In this document: positions 21,380 through 21,462 of the stretch, piece by piece
Layout: each line of letters begins with the position of its first letter
Position numbering within the stretch: the stretch's first letter is position 1
NCBI GenBank assembly: GCA_951406725.2
Contig: OX597820.1
Span: 73,470,001-73,534,000 of the forward strand
DNA from: Octopus vulgaris
Lineage: Eukaryota
Length of the DNA stretch: 64,000 nucleotides
Reading direction: 5' to 3'
Made by a program: the position numbers and the translations under genes
Notes under the pieces: model-generated
What the model was told of the DNA's origin: nothing
The model's input: the letters and a program-made list of their open reading frames with translations, nothing else
The model's database searches: none

Positions 21380-21462
21380 TTTTCCTGATGAGAAGGCGGC
21401 ATAATGCACCCCTTATTCCTTCGAAATTAGGAATATTCAGCCTTCGAAACATATGTCGAAAA
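21380..21462 (+). ncRNA. Canonical type I hammerhead ribozyme
   Basis: TTTTC CTGATGA GAAGGC..GCCTTC GAAAC ATAT GTC GAAAA: 5-bp stem I, intact core, 6-bp stem II, palindromic stem III (ACATATGT), GUC cleavage triplet. Confidence 0.8.

What the first reader, a model, noticed from the sequence alone, without database searches (positions are those of the whole stretch)
21380..21462. Fully canonical, possibly active hammerhead in the sense strand of the putative host gene
Seen: every core nucleotide is intact (CUGAUGA, GAAA, GUC), with a perfect 6-bp stem II capped by two extra hairpins (GCA-TAA-TGC; TATTCCT/AGGAATA) and a self-complementary stem III ACAUAUGU. Established: such palindromic stem III motifs favour dimeric cleavage. 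Inference: if this lies within the + strand pre-mRNA it could cleave the intron after position 21457; as a lone monomer it may be nearly silent.
Basis: partly seen in the sequence, partly recalled or inferred. Interest (0 to 1): 0.7.

Follow-up and report, generated by a model that had tools for sequence, protein, structure and literature searches.

The report
Hammerhead in a decaying Penelope fragment
This self-cutting RNA motif is the standard one carried at the end of a Penelope-type jumping gene with well over a thousand copies in this octopus genome; this copy is a truncated, slightly decayed fragment that likely sits in an intron of the four-jointed gene and is predicted to cut little or not at all.

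Summary
The hammerhead is real (intact core, 0 of 300 shuffles) but is no host feature. It is the terminal-repeat hammerhead of a young Penelope-like retroelement (RT plus C-terminal GIY-YIG, Hydra-related) with at least 1,398 arms genome-wide and no strand bias. The window holds a 178-nt 5'-truncated arm plus a 30-nt inverted arm in a (TA)n tract. It lies sense to FJX1, probably in a 5'-UTR intron (first exon not located). Known Penelope hammerheads need a partner or protein, so this copy is likely near-silent. The family is the more interesting part. It lacks the Hydra CxCX5C linker (0 of 26 copies; 88 of 89 relatives have it) yet targets (TA)n. Its two-armed insertions pair a short and a long 3' end about 150 nt apart (49 of 49; 37 of 41 in a second sample). 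Its 5' ends pile up at a predicted start site 152 nt upstream of the cut, not at the cut, so uncut RNA was likely the template. A sequence look-up found no earlier scan note on this family.

The parts
21231..21305 (.). (TA)n microsatellite, left side of the insertion target
   Evidence: sequence
21309..21338 (-). short inverted arm of the element: family positions +181..+210 from the cut site, ending at the family's long 3' end; overlaps the direct arm by about 7 nt
   Evidence: (row WIN)
21332..21509 (+). 5'-truncated terminal repeat (pLTR) arm of the Penelope-like element, family positions -125..+52, ending at the family's short 3' end; 98.3% identical to closest copies; lacks the predicted promoter (-193..-152)
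21372..21470 (+). type I hammerhead including the distal part of stem I (TTCCTT 21372-77 with 21465-70)
21385..21391 (+). catalytic core strand CUGAUGA
21392..21445 (+). stem II (6 bp; GC/GU/AU change between subfamilies at 21396/21441) with, in the family, a 5-bp extension 21399-403/21434-38 and an inner hairpin 21416-20/21429-33
21437..21437 (+). private substitution (T; G in 171 of 173 other arms) that breaks the stem II extension
21446..21457 (+). GAAA core strand, palindromic stem III ACAUAUGU (21449-56) and predicted cut after C17 (21457)
21467..21467 (+). substitution (A; G in the closest copies) that breaks a C-G pair of distal stem I
21507..21552 (.). TA/TATG microsatellite, right side of the insertion target
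42985..43051 (+). internal 5'-UTR exon of FJX1 (four-jointed), spliced to the ATG-bearing exon 19 kb beyond the window; shows the host gene is on + and that a further exon lies upstream

Best explanation
The motif is the terminal-repeat hammerhead of a high-copy Penelope-like retroelement, left in a TA microsatellite as a truncated two-armed insertion, and it is likely a passenger that rarely or never cuts the host transcript. How it got there (inferred from genomic copies): the element's RNA likely starts 152 nt upstream of the hammerhead cut site and is used uncut; the GIY-YIG nuclease would nick both strands of a (TA)n tract, one strand would prime reverse transcription at an internal site about 55 nt past the cut site and the other about 205 nt past it, and the two partial cDNAs would join head to head. 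Here one cDNA stopped after 30 nt and the other after 178 nt. The copy has no promoter of its own, so it would be transcribed only as part of the FJX1 pre-mRNA; cutting would need a partner hammerhead pairing through ACAUAUGU or the element's protein, and two substitutions have weakened its stems. Shown: sequence anatomy, copy structure, gene strand. Inferred: start site, priming sites, template state, silence.
For: Repeat: 55 matches at 94-100% from 40 scored of 2,107 candidates; 878 exact matches (442 +, 436 -) to a hammerhead pattern and 1,398 (690/708) to a downstream pattern, controls 0. Link to a coding element: longer copies run upstream into a GIY-YIG frame and an RT; L043 has pLTR-ORF-pLTR, cut sites 3,560 nt apart; 120 listed relatives at 34-45% identity over the RT. 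Insertion shape: of 86 loci, 49 two-armed, all head-to-head with one short and one long end, 36 one-armed, 1 not called (two of the 49 are duplicates of each other); second sample of 66 loci anchored downstream of the cut: 37 of 41 two-armed loci (6 loci shared with the first sample). (TA)4 within 40 nt of 118 of 134 3' ends vs 11% background; 92 of 113. 5' ends: 26 of 64 arms that reach -148 stop in -148..-155; 13 of 29 in the second sample, against 3 of 84 in the 12 nt around the cut site, no more than in neighbouring bins. -152 is the A of TCATT with TATAA 28 nt upstream in 33 of 33 arms and TGACGTCA in 24 of 33. Literature: PLE hammerheads with palindromic stem III are inactive as monomers and weak as dimers (PMC4209133); in a purified PLE, RT starts at two internal sites on both strands, the hammerhead cuts only with protein and uncut RNA is the main template (PMC11167929). 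Decay.
Against: The catalytic core of this copy is intact, and a family copy also has a low predicted share of the active shape (0.031 vs 0.016), so folding energy does not prove this copy is worse than its sisters at the core. A second, older sense-strand copy with intact core strands and the same palindrome lies about 28 kb upstream (L147:3190-3299) and could in principle be a partner in the same pre-mRNA. The one-short-one-long rule has exceptions (2 short+short, 2 atypical of 41; 3 three-armed loci). The start site rests on motifs recalled from memory and on the pile-up of ends; an extra G on both arms, as a cap would leave, is unambiguous at one locus only (L136). No RNA ends were observable (contigs only).
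Confidence: 0.88

Rival explanations
1. A transposon-derived hammerhead that does cut the FJX1 5'-UTR intron at a meaningful rate, by pairing with another copy (abundant pLTR RNA in trans, or the older sense copy 28 kb upstream) or with help from the element's protein, and so affects splicing or output of FJX1.
For: Intact core; sense to FJX1; palindrome kept self-complementary in 150 of 161 parsed arms, including the recurrent ACAUGUGU and ACAUGU variants (12 arms unparsed, some loci counted twice); pLTR sequence is covered by contigs in 4 of 4 runs laid; second sense copy.
Against: Palindrome duplex only -7.0 kcal/mol and predicted active shape under 0.1% with flanks; spliced FJX1 contigs are present in 3 of 4 runs (other individuals, insertion status unknown); mutations hit stems; published PLE hammerheads are weak even as dimers.
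Confidence: 0.07
2. The copy lies outside any host transcript (FJX1 starts between 21462 and 42985), so the motif is never transcribed.
For: The first exon was not located; only 170-174 nt of transcript lie upstream of the ATG exon's acceptor.
Against: CpG observed/expected in unmasked sequence is mostly 0.6-1.3 upstream of about -8 kb and mostly 0.1-0.6 from -6 kb through the window to the coding exons, as for a methylated gene body (established for invertebrates; recalled); 42985 has a strong acceptor. This rival changes only the transcription step, not the identity.
Confidence: 0.2
3. A stand-alone non-autonomous retrozyme that replicates as a small circular RNA.
For: Most copies are short (about 200-360 nt) and non-coding; type I hammerhead.
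Against: No tandem units; arms are nested 3' fragments of a coding element that run into GIY-YIG and RT; no pile-up of ends at the cut site; most arms stop at -152, which a circle would not impose.
Confidence: 0.04

Closest known systems
Hydra-clade Penelope-like elements, incl. Hydra-1_Obim of Octopus bimaculoides (Craig et al. 2021, PMC8557442; section 11, passages, supplement file 1 search hits and part 2 of 59 seen)
   Same: C-terminal GIY-YIG, DKT, RW motif, no CCHH, CxxC before E and CxH after N, (TA)n targets, canonical hammerhead near the 3' end with a short palindromic stem III.
   Different: CxCX5C linker absent, replaced by a cysteine-free Asn-rich stretch; RWL rather than RWK; unit about 3.56 kb rather than <3 kb; hammerhead sequence unlike that of Hydra-1_Obim and loop II of 42 nt against 3-10 nt in the Hydra rows of File S2 (compared by eye).
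Metazoan PLE hammerheads with minimal or palindromic helix III (Cervera and De la Pena 2014, PMC4209133; parts 1-2 of 4 read)
   Same: Type I topology, 5-bp proximal helix I, long helix II with G10.1-C11.1, palindromic 15.2-16.2 region, mostly single dispersed motifs, some in close inverted pairs.
   Different: Large structured loop II; no extra nucleotide needed between 9 and 10.1. Activity untested here.
Poseidon element PAc of Anolis (Frangieh et al. 2024, PMC11167929; parts 1-2 of 4 read)
   Same: Two internal RT start sites defining a tail, both strands extended, AT-rich targets, uncut RNA as template.
   Different: Start sites about 150 nt apart and both upstream of the ORF (PAc: 30-40-nt tail inside the ORF); here genomic insertions nearly always use one site per strand, whereas PAc showed no strand difference in vitro.
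Adineta vaga Penelope families (Arkhipova et al. 2013, PMC3846280; passages)
   Same: Head-to-head inverted pLTRs, tail on one arm, TATA/Inr-like motifs in the pLTR, Asn-rich inserts between RT and EN.
   Different: 31-bp tail there; that paper favours self-priming on an antisense template, whereas target (TA)n at both 3' ends here fits two target-primed cDNAs.
Metazoan non-LTR retrozymes (bioRxiv 10.64898/2026.07.22.740005; part 1 of 5 and passages)
   Same: Type I hammerhead, PLE-related, many short non-coding copies.
   Different: No tandem units; direct continuity with a coding PLE.

Membership tests
Type I hammerhead ribozyme | Core CUGANGA ... GAAA ... NUH | tested here: met
Type I hammerhead ribozyme | Helices I and II around the core, helix I open-ended | tested here: met
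   90-98% of cells paired per helix in 81 copies; one clear two-sided change (GC 36, AU 22, GU 20). Sequences are related, so covariation support is thin.
Type I hammerhead ribozyme | Match to a curated Rfam hammerhead model | tested here: not met
   not a defining property of the chemistry; probably the long loop II and 2-bp stem III (inference)
Type I hammerhead ribozyme | Self-cleavage after H17; loop I/II tertiary contact | not testable with these tools
   no raw RNA reads (one search lists contigs only)
EN+ Penelope-like element (C-terminal EN) | Single ORF with PLE-type RT followed by GIY-YIG | tested here: met
   (sister copies L041, L043, L044). Pfam alone is weak: GIY-YIG E 0.0089 below cut-off, no RT hit.
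EN+ Penelope-like element (C-terminal EN) | pLTRs with hammerhead; inverted 5'-truncated arm; tail on one end | tested here: met
   tail about 150 nt instead of 30-40
Hydra clade | DKT motif; RWK motif | tested here: met
   SDKT in L041 and L043; RWL at the RWK position in L043
Hydra clade | CCHH absent; CxxC and CxH around the catalytic E and N | tested here: met
Hydra clade | CxCX5C linker upstream of GIY-YIG | tested here: not met
   0 of 26 reading frames (one with a single Cys) vs 88 of 89 relatives with a complete EN among 120; alignment. Filed therefore as Hydra-related, not as a plain member.
Hydra clade | Insertion into (TA)n | tested here: met
Hydra clade | Phylogenetic placement among named Hydra families | not tested
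   named reference sequences were seen only in a paper supplement and compared by eye
Non-LTR retrozyme | Tandem non-coding units each with a hammerhead | tested here: not met
Host-domesticated intronic hammerhead | Single copy, conserved at orthologous loci | tested here: not met
   high copy; orthologous loci could not be examined (no relatives held)

The most novel reading that the evidence does not exclude
This family's copies are a fossil record of how Penelope elements integrate: one capped, uncut RNA is primed at two fixed internal sites about 150 nt apart, one for each nicked target strand, and the two cDNAs are joined head to head; and it homes to (TA)n after losing the linker zinc-finger that was proposed to do the homing, so targeting must come from the nuclease core or from pairing with the UA-rich RNA at the two priming sites.
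Probability: 0.45. Interest if true: 0.55.

Novelty: new variant of a known kind. Interest (0 to 1): 0.3.

Why it matters
For the host gene, probably not at all: it is one of many such fragments. For retroelement biology the family is a useful test case. It separates (TA)n targeting from the linker motif that PMC8557442 associates with it. Its widely spaced priming sites make the strand assignment of the two start sites found by PMC11167929 readable in genomic copies. It adds genomic evidence that hammerhead-cut RNA is not the usual insertion template. I found no description of this family or of a one-site-per-strand rule in six searches; Repbase/Dfam and the repeat library of PMC13282606 (passages only) were not visible and may hold the family.

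Tried and rejected
Rfam: no hammerhead match. RNAalifold on 81 copies gave a weak non-hammerhead consensus, as expected for copies 90% alike. One search used a structure string shifted by two columns and is void; one search replaces it. Pfam scan of 94 of 273 window ORFs found no host exon, only a LINE RT; the host gene came from the flanks. A predicted short 5'-UTR intron in the element (L043 about 3313-3378) had no joint among the 15 of 19 joints shown. No RNA holder on record was listed; four guessed-RNA contig sets cover the element but cannot show ends, strand or level, and their higher depth on the pLTR may only mirror copy number. Cap-derived G: 6 of 22 arms stopping at -152 have G before it, but only L136 (both arms) is not explained by the opposite arm. 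Shared template limit for both arms: 0 mixed of 18 pairs in the first sample (p about 3e-5), but 2 of 6 mixed in the second and mixed pairs among EN-selected loci (L018, L031, L042), so only suggestive. Selection on the core among copies was not tested rigorously, because 87 loci were chosen by an exact core pattern. FJX1 first exon not found by exon heuristics or by reading L147:1-4200. Naiad, Neptune, Penelope/Poseidon clades rejected on domain order and lack of CCHH. No complex or structure prediction was run.

Full report
Observation. A type I hammerhead descriptor hits only this place on either strand of the window and none of 300 shuffles. No Rfam hammerhead model matches. The hammerhead shape is not the predicted ground state: its share is 0.016 in 107 nt and 0.0003-0.0008 with flanks (secondary structure only).

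It is a repeat. A search of the own genome (2.8 Gb; an octopus, inferred from the 99.6% match of a neighbouring gene to a protein named from Octopus sinensis) gave 55 matches at 94-100% from 40 scored of 2,107 candidates. Exact patterns give 878 matches in the hammerhead (442 +, 436 -) and 1,398 just downstream (690/708), with zero control matches. The shared part of the window is 21332-21509.

It belongs to a Penelope-like element. Longer copies continue upstream into a GIY-YIG frame and an RT. L043 shows pLTR, ATG at +264 from the cut site, an ORF with one internal stop, and a second pLTR, the cut sites 3,560 nt apart. Pfam barely sees the protein, but 120 listed relatives match the RT at 34-45%. 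Motifs fit the Hydra clade as defined in PMC8557442 (section 11): DKT, RW, no CCHH, CxxC and CxH around the catalytic E and N. By eye the RT resembles Hydra-1_Obim in that paper's supplement, but the hammerhead differs, so this is another family. One defining feature fails: the CxCX5C linker is absent from 26 of 26 reading frames and present in 88 of 89 relatives with a complete nuclease. An Asn-rich stretch lies there instead; such inserts are known from rotifer Penelope (PMC3846280, passages). I file it as an EN+ PLE, Hydra-related.

The hammerhead in the family and in this copy. In 173 other arms (some loci counted twice) the window differs from the majority at 21437 (G in 171), 21467 and the subfamily site 21460. 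Against its closest copies it has 3 differences in 178 nt. Pair counts alone do not separate the two drawings. Stem II has one two-sided change between subfamilies. Stem III stays fully self-complementary in 150 of 161 parsed arms, including the recurrent ACAUGUGU and ACAUGU variants, which fits the dimer model. PMC4209133 (parts 1-2 of 4) found such motifs inactive as monomers and weak as dimers; PMC11167929 (parts 1-2 of 4) found a PLE hammerhead that cuts only with the element's protein and is dispensable for insertion.

How the copy was made. Positions are relative to the cut site. In 86 loci chosen by a pattern at -73..-46, arms end at +52..+64 (68), at about +205 (65) or elsewhere (1); 49 loci have two arms, all head to head with one short and one long end; 36 have one detected arm; one was not called (L094/L095 are duplicates). 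Because that sample cannot see copies made from cut RNA, I drew a second of 66 loci with a pattern downstream of the cut (6 loci shared): 37 of 41 two-armed loci follow the rule, 2 are short+short, 2 atypical, and 3 loci have three arms. (TA)4 follows 118 of 134 and 92 of 113 3' ends, against 11% background. 5' ends show no excess at the cut site (3 of 84 in 12 nt; 12 of 96 and 30 of 81 in the 24 and 67 nt beside it) but a wall at -148..-155 (13 of 29; 26 of 64). Position -152 is the A of TCATT, 28 nt below TATAA (33 of 33 arms) with TGACGTCA just above (24 of 33); the names initiator, TATA and CRE are recalled. A promoter inside the pLTR is established for Drosophila Penelope (PMC2377424, passages). 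The simplest reading (inferred) is uncut RNA starting at -152, primed internally at two sites, one per nicked strand. The window copy is an ordinary instance: -125..+52 direct, +181..+210 inverted, (TA)n on both sides, no promoter.

Host gene. No host coding exon was found among 94 window ORFs scanned. In 200 kb of flanks, FJX1 coding exons lie on +, the ATG 19 kb beyond the window. Contigs from 3 of 4 runs splice into the ATG exon from an exon ending at window 43051, unique in the genome. That exon is 67 nt with a strong acceptor, so at least about 105 nt come from further upstream. CpG depletion begins about 6-8 kb upstream of the window and persists to the coding exons, which suggests that the hammerhead is in a 5'-UTR intron, sense. 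This is not shown. An older sense copy with intact core strands lies about 28 kb upstream.

Verdict. The thing itself is a known kind of motif in a decaying transposon fragment. What is new is at family level: loss of the linker with (TA)n targeting kept, a 150-nt tail, and a near-strict one-site-per-strand pattern. I did not find these, but repeat databases and most supplements were not visible. Earlier scan notes: none near, none by sequence; a word look-up lists other Penelope and retrozyme families in this genome, two of which discuss insertion shapes (short listings only).

Noticed in passing
L147:3014-3345 (about 6.8 kb upstream of the window): Older (about 79-83%) two-armed copy of the same family in (TA)n, hammerhead on +, CUGAAGA/GAAA and ACAUAUGUC intact, stem II damaged; probably in the same FJX1 intron.
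   Followed up: partly
window 29150-29280 (-): Decayed relative of the same terminal repeat in antisense orientation, 5'-truncated inside the core, ending in (TA)n.
   Followed up: partly
window 42985-43051 (+); L149:8631-9971, L151:9727-9900, L154:6733-6909, L156:7258-7425: FJX1 (four-jointed kinase) gene with a very long 5' region: an untranslated exon 40 kb upstream of the ATG exon and at least one more beyond it.
   Followed up: partly
window 53441-54563 (+): LINE fragment with RT and a PHD-like finger, followed by a 61/122-bp tandem array at 54614-55218.
   Followed up: no
window 16698-16924, 41104-41296, 22080-22310: Copies of a SINE-like repeat with internal 61-67-bp tandem units.
   Followed up: no
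L136:about 1590-1620: Two arms both reach -152 and are joined by two extra letters that read as one added G on each arm, as copying a 5' cap would give.
   Followed up: partly
L043:3313-3378: Possible short GT-AG intron in the element's 5' UTR, spanning the long 3' end; no joint seen in contigs.
   Followed up: partly
L094 and L095; L205 and L206: Pairs of loci with identical insertion junctions about 18 kb and 57 kb apart: local segmental duplications.
   Followed up: no
P0009: A relative of the element's RT is named 'GATA zinc finger domain-containing protein 14-like' in Argonauta hians: likely a mis-annotation of an Asn-rich PLE protein.
   Followed up: no
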